Below are positions 1 to 36,324 of a stretch of 64,000 nucleotides of DNA, piece by piece (within the stretch, counting starts at the first letter, position 1; every line of letters starts with the position of its first letter). A program made the position numbers and the translations under genes. Under the pieces are notes generated by a model that had not been told where the DNA came from, made no database searches, and saw nothing but the letters and a program-made list of their open reading frames with translations. The DNA comes from the human T2T-CHM13v2.0 reference genome, Homo sapiens: NCBI RefSeq assembly GCF_009914755.1, contig NC_060942.1; one strand, given 5' to 3'.

Positions 1-450
1 GCCTCGGGCTCTTCCTCCGCACCTCGTAAAGCCGAGACCCCCTCGCAGTCCCCCACTCCGAGAGGCGGAAAAGTTACCTGGGATCAGCAGGGAGCCCGGG
101 CGCGCCGCGGCGTGGGGACTAGGCTCGGGCGCGCGTCCTCGGCGGCGGTGCGCAGGAGACTCGGGCGTGGGGAGGAAGCCGCAGCCCAGGGCTGCTCGCC
201 GCTGTTCCCCCCGCCCCCTGTTGCAGGAGACACCGAGGCTCCGCGGAGCTGCGGCGGGGGCCCACGCCCAGAGACCGTGCGAGGAAAGCCAACCTCGTCC
301 TGCCTGCCCTCCCAGCCGCGGGGGAGGGGGCCACCGCAGTACTTCAGGACAGTTACATGGGCACAGCCTCCTCCGTCCTGGCGCAGGGTCAGGCTCCGCG
401 GACGACGCCTGGAGACAGCTGCCAATGCCAATAGCTTTAGCCCTTTATTC
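1..450. promoter_or_regulatory. EPB41L3: CpG island / GC-rich promoter (truncated at window start)
   Basis: Very high GC and CpG density (e.g. cccgggcgcgccgcggcg) against an AT-rich, CpG-poor remainder; GC box ccccgcccc near 208-216; overlaps a minus-strand first exon. Confidence 0.9.
78..200 (-). other. EPB41L3: Non-coding first exon (5'UTR) of EPB41L3; 5' end approximate
   Basis: Minus-strand donor CAG|GTAACT with last exon base at 78. The sequence AGCCTAGTCCCCACGCCGCGGCGCGCCCGGGCTCCCTGCTGATCCCAG matches my recollection of the EPB41L3 mRNA leader; not verified by search. Confidence 0.75.
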
Positions 451-863
451 CCACTTAGATGATGGCCTGGCCTCTCCAGACCCCTCTCCCCTCCCAGACA
501 TCCCCTGTGAGAAAGGAGGGAGAGGGTGTTCCTGACCTTCAGGTGAGTTATTTATTGGCTAGGGACTGCAGTATTTTTTTTTTCTTTTTGGAAAGAAAAT
601 AAAATCAAGTTGGTGGTGTCTTCAAGTCATGTTAATAGAGAAGATCTGAATTAATGCTTGATAAGAGAAGTCGCCCATTTTTCAGCAACTCAGCTACTCC
701 GTCCTCTCCAGTATCTATAAAGCTTTCCACCGAAATTTACCTTGATTTTAAAGAGCGGAGGTGGCTCACTGACTTGTAAGTGAAAGAAGTAACTCCTGGT
801 CATCTCACAATATCTTAAGATCTAACCGACTAACCAAGATATTTAAGAAATATTTTTATGGGC

Positions 864-28714: not shown

Positions 28715-29037
28715 TTGTTTCTGTTTTTGTTGTTTTGGTTTTGGTTTTGTTTTTTAGAGACAGGGTCTCACTCTGTTGCCCAGGCTGCAGTGCAATGGTG
28801 TCATCGTGGCTCACCGCAGCCTTGAACTCCTGGGCTCAAGCAATCCTCCTGCCTCAGTATCCCAAGTAGCTGGGAATACAGGTGGACACCACCACACTCA
28901 GGTAATTTTTTAATATTTTGTAAAGACGGGGTCTTGCTATGTTGCCCAGGCTTATCTCAAACTCCTGGCCTCAAGCAATCCTCCCACCTTGGCCTCCCAA
29001 AGTGCTGGGATTACAGGCATGAGCCACTGTATCTGTC
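28715..29037 (-). mobile_element. AluJ, antisense
   Basis: gcagccttgaactcctgggctcaagcaatcctcc AluJ diagnostics. Confidence 0.93.
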
Positions 29038-30030: not shown

Positions 30031-30336
<306 letters not shown>

Positions 30337-31408: not shown

Positions 31409-32113
<705 letters not shown>

Positions 32114-33224
32114 ATATCTTTACACTTAAGATCTGAATACAACTACAAATATGAATAACATCCATACGTATAATTTTGATTTTCAGTAATTTCTTACCAG
32201 TTTGCTGCTAAAAGGCATATTCTATCAAAGTTTATTGTAAAGTCAAACAGCTCTGTTAAGGGAGGCTCATCTTCTCTGTAATTTCCATTATGGAAAGTAA
32301 TTTTTATATAGTTTTGTTAAAGTTTCTAGAATTATCGAAAAATTAGACATTTAAAGGAAAATTAGACACTTAAAGAAAATGTAATATGCTATAAAATAGG
32401 AATAATACTTAAAATATCTTACTACAAGTTACTTTTCCCAAATAGTAGGATTGTTTTTGAAAGTTAATGTCAGAAAAATAAATAAATAAAAGATATCAGC
32501 AACTTAGTAGTTGGCAGGAAAGGGGTTGGGTTCCTGTCCAGACATTGACCCTCGTCCCTCAGGATGAGGCAGGTGACACAGATAAGAAACAGTCCCTTCT
32601 GAAACATTAAGAACCCCCTTAGCTAAATACATATCAAGATCAAAAGGTTTCAACAAAAGAGCCTAATGAAATACCTCTCTGAGTTTATTTACTACTGCTT
32701 ATGTTTACAAACCTTGCTAATTAGCCACTTCTAATACCACTTATTGTTGAAATATATTTTCCCAAGGATCAACAGAAGACAGGCAAACCCACTAAGAGAC
32801 CCATACGTAAGACTCTGAAGCCTTAAATAGGTTCCTGAGCTGGGCTTGTGGGCAGCCCCATGCCTCTGAGGTTTAAGTAACATCCATGTTTCAATGAAGT
32901 TGCGTGGCCAGTTGTTTTTACAATTACTTACAAAATAAACTGAAATTATATTTCACTATACTTCTGTGTAATTCTTGGCACAAAGGAAAGTGAATTACAA
33001 CTTGTGGATTGCAAAGTCTAAGCATAAGTACACGGCATTCTTGTCTTTGGAGAGCATTCACACTTTTAACCATCCCCTAAATTGAAGTTGCCATCACAAC
33101 TGAAAGCTGTTTCCAAACTCCTCAAGTGAATGTCCCCAGAGCAAAGACTTTCTGACGAATGGTCAGGCTGGCATGTACTAAGTAAGAAGGACAAAGGGAA
33201 AGGTGAGATACGCTGTAGCTAGAC

Positions 33225-33441
33225 TTCATCCATTTTCATTTCTGGATTTTTCTACTAAAAACTGAAAAGCAGAGCTTTCAAATCAGAGAAAAACTAGAGA
33301 ACAATTAGCGTAGCAAAGACATAAATAACAAACATTTTAAGAGGCATCATGCACGAAAGAAGAATTCCACATTTCCCTAGTTGAATTTACATGTGGATTT
33401 TGTTTAAATATGTATCCAATGCAGAGTTATAATCACTAACA
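33225..33441 (+). repeat. Arm 1 (donor) of a 217-bp inverted duplication
   Basis: Reverse complement of 34468-34684 with 7 mismatches and no indels (hand-aligned). Confidence 0.97.
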
Positions 33442-33492
33442 ATGGCCACTTCTCACAAGCATACATTAATGTTAGCAATCCGAAAATTTTAC

Positions 33493-33547
33493 CTCCAAAT
33501 CCTAAGAGAGACTTTGAGCACAGATAGAGACAGATGAAAGATGGCAT
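33493..33547 (-). CDS. EPB41L3: Candidate coding part of an alternative upstream EPB41L3 exon (MPSFICLYLCSKSLLGFG, phase-1 donor)
   Basis: ATG at 33547 with A at -3; 18 codons then G|GTAAAA donor at 33493. Acceptor TTTCTGTGTTTCACAG precedes 33617 and TATAAATA lies at 33745-33738. Assignment to EPB41L3 is inference. Confidence 0.4.
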
Positions 33548-33737
33548 GCTGCAGTGCAGCAATTTCAAAGTTACTGTAGCATTGACTCTCCGGCTTCTAT
33601 TCCTCCAGGAATATTCTCTGTGAAACACAGAAAGATCCCGGAAAGGTAAAAGCAATTGCTTTCTATCACATCCAGATTCTCTCCTTAAATTCAACACTCC
33701 AAAAATCAAGCCGGGGCAGGAAGCAATAACTGCACAG

Positions 33738-33745
33738 TATTTTAT
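33738..33745 (-). promoter_or_regulatory. Candidate TATA box (TATAAATA)
   Basis: Canonical TATAWAW on the minus strand about 250 bp upstream of the 33493 donor. Confidence 0.35.
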
Positions 33746-34334
33746 AGTGTCCTTCAGATTCTTCTTCTAATATTTCCCCTGGTTCCCAGTGTAGCTTCTC
33801 CGCATGACTGTGCAGCATTCTGCAAAGTGCTGTAGATCCCAGCAGCAGAGAAACAGAAAACCTAAAGTGTCATGGGGCCACCTATGACCACTGGCTTCTG
33901 AGCATCATCATTTTGCTTGATATTGAATTTTCAGTTTAGTTATGTATATATTGTTATCCTTATCTTTCACAATTGTCATATTAATACACATTTTGAACAT
34001 CTACAGATAGGGCTACTGAGATCAACAGGATAATTATACTGATTTTTGCTTTTAATTTTGCCAAAGACTGCATTGAAATTCTCCCCTTGTACTTTCTTTC
34101 TTCATATTTCCTTCAAAGGAGTCTGAGCTCATTTAACTTGCTTTATTCTCTAAAGTTCAACAATACTAGTAGGACTACACTGGCCACACCGATAAGCAGC
34201 AATCTGTACTAAGCAAAGAGGGCCAGTTCCAACCAAGCCAGTCCACTGATAGGAGGCTCCAGGGTTGGGGGGGTGGCGGGGTGGGGCAGGGCCCAGAGAG
34301 AGCAAAAAACAACATTTTTTTGGTTGTCTATTAT

Positions 34335-34725
34335 GCTGTATGCCAGCACTTACAGTTCCATTTGTAAACATTAATTTAATCCTAAGTCAACTCAGTGAAC
34401 ATTGTATTATCCACATCCCCATTTTTACAGATAAAAAAAGATCTCAAAATGATCAAGAAATTGTTACTGTTAGTGATTATAACTCTGCATTGGATACATA
34501 TTTAAACAAAATCCACATGTAAATTCAACTAGGGAAATGTGGAATTCTTCTTTAATGCATGATGCCTCTTAAAATGTTTGTTATTCATGGCTTTGCTATG
34601 CTAATTGTCCTCTAGTTTTTCTCTGATTTGAAAGCTCTGCTTTTCAGTTTTTAGTAGAAAAACCCAGAAATGAAAATGGATGAAACCAAGAAATTTGCCC
34701 CACATCTCCTGCAAACCAATAAGAA
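34335..34725 (-). mobile_element. MIR split by the inverted insertion
   Basis: cccatttttacagat...gatcaagaaatt [insert] caagaaatttgccccac follows the MIR core (ttaagtaacttgcccaagg). Confidence 0.65.
34468..34684 (-). repeat. Arm 2 (inserted copy) of the 217-bp inverted duplication
   Basis: Flanked by direct repeat caagaaatt at 34454-34462 and 34687-34695, with fillers gttac and ac. Confidence 0.97.
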
Positions 34726-34729
34726 GATG

Positions 34730-35560
34730 ACAATCTTACAGAAAAATGATCAAAGGATAAGAATAGACATTTTGTGGCAGGGAAAGCACATCATGCCCAT
34801 AAGCATGAGAAGTGGTGGTCAGCACCATTAGTAGTCAGATAAATGTAAATTAAACCCCAGTGAGAGAGAACATAATGCAATAAAGAGCCTCAATTTTATA
34901 CCCATTCACTTAGCAAAAAATGAAAAAGTCTCACAATTCCAGGTGTTGGAAGGAATGTGAATCCACATTCTAATGAGAGTGAAAAACTGGGCAACCACTT
35001 TGGAAAACAATTTGGTACTGTCTCCTGATGTTGAACATTCATACGCCCTACTACCCAGCAATTCTATTCCCACCCAAGAGAAACTGGCACATGTGCATAG
35101 GAGTTACAGTTACCTTCAACAGTGCTGAAACAGCTCCCTCCACAATAGCAAAATCGTGAAGACACCCACATGCTTATCAAGAAGACATTGTAAAAATAAA
35201 CTGCAGTATGTTTTACACACTGGAATATTAAACAATAGAACAAAACAGATGTTATTACAGCATATCACAATGTAGATGAAACTTCACAATAAAAAATCTC
35301 AGAGAATTATATACAACAAGATGTCCTTTTTAAAAACTTAAACACAATTAAAATTTAAAATTTTCTTTTCAGAGTGTAATAAGATTGCATAAACAGGAAA
35401 GTAAAGGCATACTTTACATGCCAGACAGGATGCTGTCTCTGTTAGGTGGAGAGAGAGGATAAGACAAGGAAATTGCCAAATGGTGAGATGAAGGTTATCG
35501 TCGAAATCCTAGCTGTTGTTTTGGCAGGTGGTTCATAGGTGCTTCTTATTTAAGATGTCT
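34730..35560 (+). mobile_element. Old L1ME fragment
   Basis: aaccactttggaaaacaatttgg...cccagcaattctattcc...aaataaactgcagtatg. Confidence 0.65.
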
Positions 35561-36324
35561 AATAGATAAGTAAAGAGGAAACACCGATGAGTACATATCA
35601 TTAACCAAAGATTATTAGTAATCTAATTTTGTACCTCTGAGGTCCTAAAAACACCCAAAGGACCAAGATAAAAACAACAAATCAACATAAATCAGGCCCA
35701 AGTCATCCAGTGATGCTTCAGGAGCTCAAATTCAGTCCTGCCAGGCTCCAAAGCCCAAGCTCTTCCTTTCTGAACTAGAGATCCAAAGCCATACAAGTTA
35801 CTCCCATTCTCTCATGATGATGAGTGACCTTGTCTATAGGTCATAGCCAGAGCTGATAAACTTATTTTTTCCAGGACTGTAGAAAGACAAGAAAGATATT
35901 ACCAATCTGACAGAGACTTCTGGGCAACAGAAAGTCTGAGCTAGGCTAGAATCCTGGACCTACCACATACTGTAACCAATGTCTCTAGATGGGAATGTTT
36001 CACTCTCTCAGCCTCAATTACCTTAGGATGTGAGGATTAGAGATGACGGTGAAGATGATGATCACGAAGACTGACACTGTTGGTTGCTTATAAGCCAGAG
36101 TTTTATCAACATTTTAAAATATGACCCTCAGTGCAACCTATAAGGCATGAATTACTATTAATCCCAATTTAAGGGTAAGGTGATTGAGAGAAAAAGAGCT
36201 TAAGAAATTTCCACAAGGTCATACAATTATGATGAAAGATGGCTGGCTCTCTCCTGGCTCCATTGCCCATGCTCTAAACGTCTAAGATAAGTACACACTT
36301 CTGTATAGAAACAGACACTCATTT

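What the first reader, a model, noticed from the sequence alone, without database searches (positions are those of the whole stretch)
33225..34695. 217-bp inverted duplication of apparently unique DNA enclosing a candidate exon: possible promoter-dependent RNA stem splicing switch
Seen: 33225-33441 and 34468-34684 are reverse complements (210/217 identical, no indels) with a 1026-bp spacer, and I do not recognise the arms as a repeat family. The spacer holds a minus-strand acceptor (before 33617) and a donor at 33493, only 52 nt from arm 1. Four of the 7 mismatches become G-U wobbles in a minus-strand RNA but only 1 in a plus-strand RNA (small numbers). Inference: minus-strand transcripts starting further upstream would form a long duplex that loops out the exon, favouring skipping, back-splicing to a circRNA, or ADAR editing. 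A transcript starting inside the loop has only one arm and would splice normally.
Basis: partly seen in the sequence, partly recalled or inferred. Interest (0 to 1): 0.8.

Follow-up and report, generated by a model that had tools for sequence, protein, structure and literature searches.

The report
Local inverted duplication in EPB41L3 intron
A 217-base stretch of single-copy human DNA was copied backwards about 1 kb away, so rare long EPB41L3 transcripts should fold into a long RNA hairpin there, but nothing suggests it controls splicing.

Summary
Arms 33225-33441 and 34468-34684 are reverse complements, 210/217 identical with no indels. They are the only two copies in the whole T2T genome. 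The same tool found 36 old repeat copies at 68-90% identity in the right flank, so the arms are not a detectable repeat family.

New here: arm 2 is bracketed by an 11-bp direct repeat, ATCAAGAAATT / ACCAAGAAATT. Only 27 of 20000 random intervals score as well. Arm 1 and the whole unit have no such repeat. Arm 2 is therefore most likely an inserted inverted copy of arm 1. There is no poly(A) and no homology beyond the arms. Divergence of 3.2% suggests roughly 10-33 Myr.

Both strands fold into the full stem. The main EPB41L3 promoter lies at window ~162, about 33 kb downstream of the repeat on the gene's strand. Only transcripts from the distal CpG-island promoter (~86830) contain the arms.

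The "candidate exon" is unannotated and ordinary: 470 equally good acceptor-donor pairs lie on that strand of the window. The G-U bias (4 vs 1) is not significant (p=0.19).

Verdict: a real, probably neutral mutational scar and a predicted intronic dsRNA. The splicing switch is unsupported.

The parts
33225..33441 (.). Arm 1, the inferred source copy of the inverted duplication (217 bp, GC 0.31, 2 CpG).
   Evidence: It has no flanking direct repeat (best 4 matching bases).
34468..34684 (.). Arm 2, the inferred inserted inverted copy of arm 1 (210/217 identical, 0 CpG).
   Evidence: It is bracketed by an 11-bp direct repeat. No poly(A) at either end.
34452..34462 (+). Left copy of the target-site-like direct repeat, ATCAAGAAATT.
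   Evidence: 10/11 identical to 34685-34695. 27 of 20000 random 217-nt intervals score as well.
34685..34695 (+). Right copy of the direct repeat, ACCAAGAAATT. It abuts the last base of arm 2.
34463..34467 (+). 5-nt junction filler, GTTAC, between the left direct repeat and the arm 2 core. ATTGTTA at 34460-34466 equals the reverse complement of 33437-33443, so the junction holds a second, overlapping partial copy of arm 1's inner end (a 'stutter').
Evidence: Read from the sequences printed.
33442..34451 (.). Spacer, the loop of the predicted hairpin. It is single-copy DNA.
   Evidence: the 1002-nt spacer query 33454-34455 had 1 genome match, itself. Rfam found nothing at E<=1 in 32500-35500.
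33493..33617 (-). Acceptor TTTCTGTGTTTCACAG|A, donor GAG|GTAAAA.
   Evidence: the donor matches 6/9 of the consensus and the acceptor tract is 12/17 pyrimidine. 470 equally good pairs lie on the minus strand of the window. The hub table lists no exon here.

Best explanation
This is a lineage-specific local inverted duplication. About 217-222 bp of single-copy DNA (arm 1) was copied in reverse orientation into a staggered break about 1 kb away. The break's roughly 11-nt overhang was filled in, leaving a flanking direct repeat around the new copy (arm 2).

The copying step was most likely DNA-templated repair or replication synthesis using the nearby sequence. This is inferred; the exact enzyme pathway is not resolved. 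The event is old: arm divergence is 3.2%, roughly 10-33 Myr. It is probably neutral.

Its one predictable molecular consequence is at the RNA level. EPB41L3 pre-mRNAs that start at the distal CpG-island promoter, about 52 kb upstream on the gene's strand, carry both arms inside a first intron that, from the hub table, must be at least 86 kb long. They should fold into a hairpin of about 217 bp that is more than 96% paired, with a 1-kb loop. That makes it a likely ADAR substrate that is discarded with the intron. Transcripts from the main promoter (window ~162) contain neither arm.

It is not a splicing switch.

**Shown:** the repeat, its uniqueness, the flanking direct repeat, the folds, and the positions of the two promoters.

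**Inferred:** the direction of copying, the mechanism, the age, neutrality, and editing.
For: **The repeat and its uniqueness**
- 210/217 identity, no indels, sharp ends.
- only 2 matches in 3.1 Gb.
- the spacer and the left flank are single copy.
- the same search returns 36 diverged repeat copies (68-90% identity) for the right flank. An old repeat family would therefore have been seen.
- 60 inverted pairs of at least 100 nt were found in the window and the 25 longest were listed. Among those 25 this is the only pair above 87% complementarity. Most of the other arms fall in NCBI-masked, Alu-length stretches named in the hub list.

**Direction of copying**
- an 11-bp direct repeat (10/11) brackets arm 2. 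One copy abuts the arm end; the other lies 5 nt from the core. 27 of 20000 random intervals score as well.
- the best flank matches are 4 bases for arm 1 and 4 bases for the whole unit.
- a position-free local alignment of arm 2's two 40-nt flanks is reached by 8 of 500 shuffles. There is no homology beyond the arms and no poly(A).

**RNA consequence**
- the full-length stem is predicted on either strand.

**Promoters**
- exon 78-162 lacks an acceptor and has an 8/9 donor.
- window 1-600 has GC 0.65 and CpG o/e 0.71.
- window 85831-87080 has GC 0.66-0.73 and CpG o/e 0.71-0.89, with donor CAG|GTGAGC 287 nt from the annotated gene end.
Against: - No outgroup genome was available. The direction of the event, the empty site and the age are untested.
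- The tolerances of the direct-repeat statistic (left copy within 8 nt, right copy within 3 nt of the boundaries) were set after I had seen the repeat. The figure 27/20000 is therefore optimistic.
- The two repeat copies differ at 1 of 11 positions, and a 5-nt filler separates one copy from the arm.
- No known pathway fits all the features.
  - Class 1 templated insertions have target duplications but also poly(A) and a TTTT/A site (passages of PMC5110952). Both are absent here.
  - The short template-switch model did not observe events whose return point precedes the departure point (passages of PMC5453318). A flanking duplication implies exactly that.
- Six of the 7 mismatches lie in 33300-33355, and the last 86 bp are perfect. 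This could mean partial gene conversion, which would make the age an underestimate.
- Neutrality is assumed, not shown. Expression of distal-promoter transcripts and editing were not tested.
Confidence: 0.68

Rival explanations
1. Micro-inversion scar. A roughly 1-kb segment was inverted after staggered breaks, and the stretch between the paired nicks was duplicated in inverted orientation at both ends of the inverted segment. This is the staggered-break model proposed for Drosophila inversions.
For: In passages of PMC1885836, 17 of 29 fixed Drosophila inversions carry inverted duplications of non-repetitive DNA at their breakpoints. The geometry here is the same: unique arms flanking a unique spacer.
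Against: That model predicts no direct repeat around one arm. The 11-bp repeat around arm 2 is unexplained by it unless it is chance (27/20000). The orientation of the spacer in the ancestor could not be tested. No paper searched links an inversion to this site. One search found 24 papers holding both EPB41L3 and 'inversion'; the one I opened (PMC11092980) concerns a large human-specific inversion that contains the gene.
Confidence: 0.12
2. RNA-templated insertion. A fragment of intronic RNA from arm 1 was reverse-transcribed, by L1 ORF2p or another reverse transcriptase, and inserted nearby. This would be a class-1-like templated sequence insertion.
For: An 11-bp target duplication is in the range recalled for L1-mediated events. 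Class 1 TSIPs are defined by a duplication of at least 5 bp and can derive from intronic sequence (passages of PMC5110952). On the plus strand, arm 2 reads in the sense of the EPB41L3 pre-mRNA across arm 1.
Against: There is no poly(A) tract at either end. Neither possible nick site resembles TTTT/A (read). [quoted passage not shown]
Confidence: 0.1
3. Functional RNA element. The hairpin regulates distal-promoter EPB41L3 transcripts, either by looping out and skipping or back-splicing the 125-nt exon or through ADAR-dependent processing.
For: The stem is predicted to form. The arms flank splice-like motifs in the geometry recalled for circRNA formation driven by intronic complementary sequences. 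Four of 5 transitions preserve G-U pairing in the minus-strand RNA.
Against: The hub table lists no exon here. The signals are ordinary: 470 comparable pairs in 64 kb. The G-U bias is not significant (p = 0.19). No start site or CpG island lies in the loop. No paper names a circEPB41L3. Nearly perfect long dsRNAs are reported to be depleted even from pre-mRNAs (passages of PMC7006430). That speaks for mere tolerance of this one rather than selection for it.
Confidence: 0.05
4. Non-autonomous DNA transposon with long terminal inverted repeats, or two independent insertions of one repeat family.
For: Terminal inverted repeats bounding a 1.46-kb unit.
Against: The arms have only two genomic copies and the spacer one. 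No target duplication flanks the whole unit (best 4 matching bases). The arms are 97% identical, whereas human DNA transposons are recalled to have been inactive for about 37 Myr or more. The two arms end at exactly the same bases.
Confidence: 0.02

Closest known systems
Non-repetitive intramolecular dsRNAs and inverted duplicated sequences in human pre-mRNAs. Sources: dsRNAscan catalogue, PMC11838218 (passages); Barak et al. 2020, PMC7006430 (passages and supplement search).
   Same: An intronic inverted duplication that is more than 96% paired, with a kb-scale loop, and is predicted to be removed with the intron. The class is reported as sparse, about 2 non-repetitive dsRNAs per Mb. 31,017 of 5,134,754 predictions are more than 96% paired.
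   Different: At 217-229 bp it falls below the 300-bp cut-off used for the 'long and nearly perfect' lists. It is not among the chr18 rows of Barak's supplement: 4 occurrences of 'chr18', 2 passages shown, neither at this site. I could not query the dsRNAscan web resource, so whether this hairpin is already listed there is unknown.
Inverted Alu pairs (IRAlus) as ADAR substrates and drivers of circRNA formation (recalled knowledge).
   Same: Two inverted arms a few hundred nt long within one intron, forming dsRNA. Alu-like inverted pairs lie in the same intron, for example 28750-29027 / 31730-32007.
   Different: The arms are single-copy DNA. They pair at 97%, against 71-87% for the other listed pairs in the window.
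Templated sequence insertion polymorphisms (Onozawa and Aplan 2016, PMC5110952; passages).
   Same: Insertion of a few hundred bp copied from elsewhere in the genome, with a target duplication of at least 5 bp as in class 1.
   Different: No poly(A) and no TTTT/A site, so not class 1. It has a target duplication, so not class 2. The donor is 1 kb away on the same chromosome rather than distant. Whether it is fixed or polymorphic is unknown.
Inverted duplications at inversion breakpoints from staggered breaks (Ranz et al. 2007, PMC1885836; passages).
   Same: Inverted duplicates of non-repetitive DNA flanking a unique segment, with fill-in of staggered breaks as the source of the duplication.
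   Different: A different organism and scale. The direct repeat around one arm is not predicted by that model. Inversion of the spacer is untested.
Template-switch mutations that create hairpins. Sources: Löytynoja and Goldman 2017, PMC5453318 (passages); Mönttinen and Löytynoja 2022 and 2023, PMC8794818 and PMC10710096 (search listing only).
   Same: A nearby fragment copied in reverse complement creates a new inverted repeat, and hence an RNA hairpin, in one step.
   Different: Those are described as short-range events within a few tens of bp, filtered at a copied fragment of at least 14 bp. This one copies 217 bp from 1 kb away. Its flanking duplication implies a return point upstream of the departure point, an order those authors did not observe.

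Membership tests
Interspersed-repeat inverted pair (e.g. IRAlu) | Both arms belong to a multi-copy repeat family. | tested here: not met
   2 matches in the whole genome, both the arms themselves. One search shows the same search detects old repeats at 68-90% identity.
TIR DNA transposon / MITE | Target-site duplication flanking the whole element. | tested here: not met
   the best direct match between the outer flanks of 33225..34684 is 4 bases.
TIR DNA transposon / MITE | Other copies of the element in the genome. | tested here: not met
   the arms occur only here, and the spacer is single copy.
Class 1 templated sequence insertion (L1 ORF2p-mediated) | Duplication of at least 5 bp of recipient sequence at both junctions. 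| tested here: met
   11 bp, 10/11 identical. Definition taken from PMC5110952.
Class 1 templated sequence insertion (L1 ORF2p-mediated) | Non-templated poly(A) of 10-40 nt with an upstream AATAAA. | tested here: not met
   the insert ends read ...AAAATGGATGAA and GTTACTGTTAG...; there is no A or T tract.
Class 1 templated sequence insertion (L1 ORF2p-mediated) | Insertion at a 5'-TTTT/A-3' site. | tested here: not met
   Read. The two possible nick sites are ...TTGAT/CATT... and ...AAATT/TGCC....
Class 2 templated sequence insertion (DSB patch) | No target duplication, with NHEJ-type junctions. | tested here: not met
   A target duplication is present. A 5-nt filler at one junction is compatible with end joining.
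Staggered-break inversion with inverted duplications | The segment between the duplicates is inverted relative to the ancestor. | not testable with these tools
   No outgroup genome is held. The genome search states that the assembly has no relatives here.
Short template switch (four-point model) | A fragment copied in reverse complement from nearby sequence. | tested here: met
Short template switch (four-point model) | The return point does not precede the departure point (only such orders were observed). | tested here: not met
   The 11-bp flanking duplication implies re-copying of target sequence. The observed orders are described in PMC5453318.
Long, nearly perfect dsRNA (candidate MDA5 ligand) | Stem longer than 300 bp. 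| tested here: not met
   217 bp core, 229 with the fuzzy end. Thresholds from PMC11838218 and PMC7006430.
Long, nearly perfect dsRNA (candidate MDA5 ligand) | More than 96% paired. | tested here: met
   210/217 Watson-Crick (96.8%); 214/217 counting G-U in the minus-strand RNA.
circRNA exon flanked by intronic complementary sequences | Inverted complementary sequences in the flanking introns. | tested here: met
   The arms lie about 850 nt upstream of the acceptor and 52 nt downstream of the donor on the minus strand.
circRNA exon flanked by intronic complementary sequences | The exon's splice sites are used (linear or back-splice reads). | not testable with these tools
   No RNA data. The hub table lists no exon here. 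0 papers name a circEPB41L3.
ADAR hyper-editing substrate | Clustered A-to-G mismatches in RNA reads over both arms. | not testable with these tools
   No RNA data or editing catalogue was available. One search listed 6 papers holding both EPB41L3 and 'A-to-I'. None has either term in its title or abstract; I read none.

The most novel reading that the evidence does not exclude
The inverted copy created, in one step in an ape or Old World monkey ancestor, a promoter-specific RNA structure. Only EPB41L3 pre-mRNAs from the distal CpG-island promoter carry the near-perfect hairpin of about 217 bp. The hairpin might mark those transcripts for ADAR hyper-editing or nuclear retention. Alternatively it might drive back-splicing of the enclosed cryptic 125-nt exon into a lineage-specific circRNA. 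Either would give the two promoters different RNA fates.
Probability: 0.05. Interest if true: 0.6.

Novelty: new member of a known kind. Interest (0 to 1): 0.3.

Why it matters
This is a clean example of how a single local copying event can create a long, nearly perfect hairpin from non-repetitive DNA inside a human gene. Published surveys describe that class as sparse and as depleted even from pre-mRNAs.

The flanking 11-bp duplication without poly(A) does not fit either described class of templated insertion, nor the observed template-switch types. If confirmed by an empty site in another primate, it would be a useful datable case for the mechanism of such events.

For EPB41L3 itself the practical points are modest. 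The hairpin is confined to distal-promoter transcripts and should be a non-Alu editing hotspot. The inverted arms could in principle mediate inversion of the 1-kb spacer. There is no reason at present to think it regulates splicing.

Tried and rejected
- **Rfam** scan of 32500-35500, both strands, E<=1: 0 matches. There is no known miRNA or structured-RNA family here.
- **Transposon reading:** rejected. The sequence is single copy and no duplication flanks the whole unit.
- **Two independent repeat insertions:** rejected.
- **Homology beyond the arms**, with gaps: none. The 229-nt figure therefore overstates the repeat. The inner 12 nt match at 7/12.
- **Paralogous 'empty site':** I looked for an old repeat spanning a junction that could serve as one. 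The spacer and left flank have no other copies. The right-flank repeat starts about 200 nt from the junction. The test was not possible.
- **Literature**
  - EPB41L3 with circRNA names: 0 papers.
  - EPB41L3 with 'A-to-I': 6 papers, none with either term in its title or abstract (listing only).
  - EPB41L3 with 'inversion': 24 papers, 15 listed. The one I opened concerns a large human-specific inversion.
  - Aguado et al. 2014 (PMC3961182): no chr18 or 18p11 mention.
  - One search returned mostly chloroplast papers and was useless.
- **Barak et al. supplement:** no EPB41L3, and no row at this site among the 2 chr18 passages shown. This is expected, since their table covers only stems longer than 300 bp.
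- **Splice-site scoring** used a crude match count to a consensus recalled from memory, not MaxEntScan. It may underrate the donor, which has six contiguous U1-pairing positions.
- **Microhomology at the outer junction:** I looked by eye and found nothing convincing, so I claim none.
Full report
**1. The observation**

The repeat finder on 32000-36000 reports one strong inverted pair. Its arms are 33225-33453 and 34456-34684: 229 nt, 95% complementary, 1002 nt apart.

A base-by-base comparison shows a clean core, 33225-33441 against 34468-34684, with 210/217 matches and no indels. The 12 further inner bases match at only 7/12. Identity stops abruptly at the outer end.

Gapped local alignments of the 200 nt beyond each end are no better than shuffles. 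For the inner flanks, 96 of 500 shuffles reach the observed score; for the outer flanks, 302 of 500 do.

So is the wobble count: the minus-strand RNA has 4 G-U pairs and 3 mismatches, the plus-strand RNA 1 and 6.

**2. Is it a repeat family?**

No, as far as these tools can see.
- A search of the whole 3.1-Gb assembly with arm 1 returns two places, the two arms (E = 1.7e-113 and 1.5e-97).
- The spacer and the 1-kb left flank are single copy.
- As a sensitivity control, the same search on the right flank returned 36 other places at 68-90% identity. They belong to an old interspersed repeat at about 34893-35180. A diverged family would have been visible.
- One search found 60 inverted pairs of at least 100 nt in the window and listed the 25 longest. 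Among those 25 every other pair is 71-87% complementary. Most of their arms fall in stretches the hub lists as masked. These are Alu-length pairs.
- The arms are not in the hub's list of masked stretches, which includes items as short as 187 bp.

**3. Anatomy that polarises the event**

Arm 2 is bracketed by a direct repeat: ATCAAGAAATT at 34452-34462 and ACCAAGAAATT at 34685-34695, 10/11 identical. The right copy starts at the base after the arm. The left copy ends 5 nt (GTTAC) before the arm core.

With the same tolerances, 27 of 20000 random 217-nt intervals in the window score as well. I set those tolerances after seeing the repeat, so this figure is optimistic. A position-free local alignment of the two 40-nt flanks is reached by 8 of 500 shuffles.

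Arm 1's flanks share at most 4 matching bases. So do the outer flanks of the whole 1.46-kb unit.

The simplest reading is that arm 2 is a copy of arm 1, inserted in inverted orientation into a break with an 11-nt stagger.

At the inner junction, ATTGTTA (34460-34466) is the reverse complement of 33437-33443. After one C, the arm restarts from 33441 (read). This looks like an aborted first copy primed on the 3-nt ATT overlap. That reading is inference.

There is no poly(A) or T tract at either end.

**4. Which mechanism?**

No described pathway fits every feature.
- **Class 1 templated insertions** have target duplications, but also poly(A) tails, a polyadenylation signal and TTTT/A sites. **Class 2** insertions have no duplication (passages of PMC5110952).
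- **The staggered-break model for inversions** explains inverted duplicates of unique DNA (17 of 29 Drosophila inversions; passages of PMC1885836). It does not predict a direct repeat around one arm.
- **The four-point template-switch model** creates inverted repeats from nearby sequence. It describes short-range events within a few tens of bp, and its authors did not observe orders in which the return precedes the departure (passages of PMC5453318).

I therefore commit only to this: a DNA-templated copy of nearby sequence was captured at a staggered break and the overhang filled in. An RNA-templated variant and the inversion model are kept as rivals.

**5. Age**

Seven differences in 217 give p = 0.032 (Jukes-Cantor 0.033; Poisson 95% range 0.013-0.066).

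With recalled substitution rates of 0.5-1.0e-9 per site per year, this is about 16-33 Myr. Leaving out the three differences at the two CpG sites gives about 9.5-19 Myr.

Both CpGs survive in arm 1 and are lost in arm 2.

Six of the 7 differences lie in 33300-33355, and the inner 86 bp are perfect. Partial gene conversion is possible and would make these ages too young.

**6. Transcription context**

The annotated exon 78-162 of NM_012307.5 is preceded by CC, not AG. It has an 8/9 donor and lies in a CpG island (window 1-600: GC 0.65, o/e 0.71). It sits back to back with the lncRNA that starts at 176. It is a first exon.

The repeat therefore lies about 33 kb upstream of the main promoter on the gene's strand. 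Main-promoter transcripts contain neither arm.

The annotated gene end at 86830 lies in a second CpG island (85831-87080: GC 0.66-0.73, o/e 0.71-0.89). A CAG|GTGAGC donor lies 287 nt downstream of it. Transcripts from there would carry both arms in a first intron that, from the hub table, must be at least 86 kb long.

The loop itself has no CpG-island signature (o/e 0.09-0.32) and no annotated start.

**7. RNA structure**

The minus-strand RNA 34694->33215 folds with the complete stem (MFE -612.3 kcal/mol). So does the plus strand (-584.2). The arm-arm cofold is -350.4 against -341.0 kcal/mol.

The 4:1 excess of G-U on the minus strand rests on 5 transitions (binomial p = 0.19 one-sided, 0.375 two-sided). 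It is no evidence of selection on the RNA.

A stem of about 217 bp at 96.8% Watson-Crick pairing is the kind of duplex that ADARs edit promiscuously (recalled knowledge). The two arms of the minus-strand RNA hold 82 and 65 adenosines. Editing itself was not testable.

**8. The candidate exon**

On the minus strand the acceptor is TTTCTGTGTTTCACAG|A, with first exon base 33617. The donor is GAG|GTAAAA, with last exon base 33493. The exon is 125 nt.

I used a crude measure: matches to the recalled consensus MAG|GTRAGT, pyrimidine count, YAG, and no upstream AG. By it, 580 of 3416 GT sites and 217 of 4383 AG sites on that strand are at least as good. They form 470 acceptor-to-donor pairs at 50-300 nt, involving 200 acceptors. 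The plus strand gives 489 pairs.

For comparison, the annotated lncRNA exons score 7-9/9 at their donors (three 9s and one 7). The annotated EPB41L3 donor scores 8/9.

The hub table lists no EPB41L3 exon here. This is an ordinary pseudoexon until reads show otherwise.

The geometry, with inverted arms flanking it, is right for back-splicing (recalled from the circRNA literature). That is why the reading keeps a small probability.

**9. Comparison with what is known**

Surveys of inverted duplicated sequences place this element in a known but sparse class.
- dsRNAscan reports about 2 non-repetitive dsRNAs per Mb. [quoted passage not shown] 96.43% of genic predictions are intronic (passages of PMC11838218).
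- Barak et al. report depletion of nearly perfect inverted duplicates even from pre-mRNAs. Of 197 long, nearly perfect human structures, only 20 have both arms expressed above FPKM 0.01 (passages of PMC7006430).
- This stem is shorter than their 300-bp cut-off and is not in their supplementary table.
- I could not consult the dsRNAscan browser, REDIportal, circBase, Dfam or any other primate genome.

**10. Verdict**

The repeat is real and unusual in being made of unique DNA. It is best explained as an old, local, inverted templated insertion with a target-site duplication, with no demonstrated function.

It is a new member of a known kind, with one mechanistically interesting feature: a target duplication without retrotransposition hallmarks. 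The splicing-switch interpretation is unsupported.

Noticed in passing
window 1-600: A CpG island (GC 0.65, CpG o/e 0.71). The EPB41L3 exon 78-162 (minus strand) has no acceptor and sits back to back with the plus-strand lncRNA LOC107985145, which starts at 176. This looks like a bidirectional promoter and is the main EPB41L3 start.
   Followed up: partly
L003 (window coordinates 85831-87080, outside the window): A second CpG island at the annotated distal end of EPB41L3 (GC 0.66-0.73, o/e 0.71-0.89). A CAG|GTGAGC donor at window 86543 lies 287 nt from the gene end.
   Followed up: partly
window ~34893-35180: An old interspersed repeat, with 36 other genomic places at 68-90% identity. The family was not identified.
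   Followed up: no
window 33300-33355 versus 33356-33441: Six of the 7 arm mismatches cluster within 56 bp, while the inner 86 bp are perfect. This may be partial gene conversion between the arms, or chance.
   Followed up: no
window 28750-29027 / 31730-32007 and 30085-30230 / 31864-32009: Alu-length inverted pairs (82% and 86% complementary, 2.7 and 1.6 kb apart) just downstream of the finding on the gene's strand. They are further potential dsRNA in the same intron.
   Followed up: no
window 34262-34292: A G-rich run on the plus strand inside the loop, made of several G3-G7 blocks (C-rich in the EPB41L3-sense RNA). It has the look of a G-quadruplex motif on the plus-strand DNA (read).
   Followed up: no
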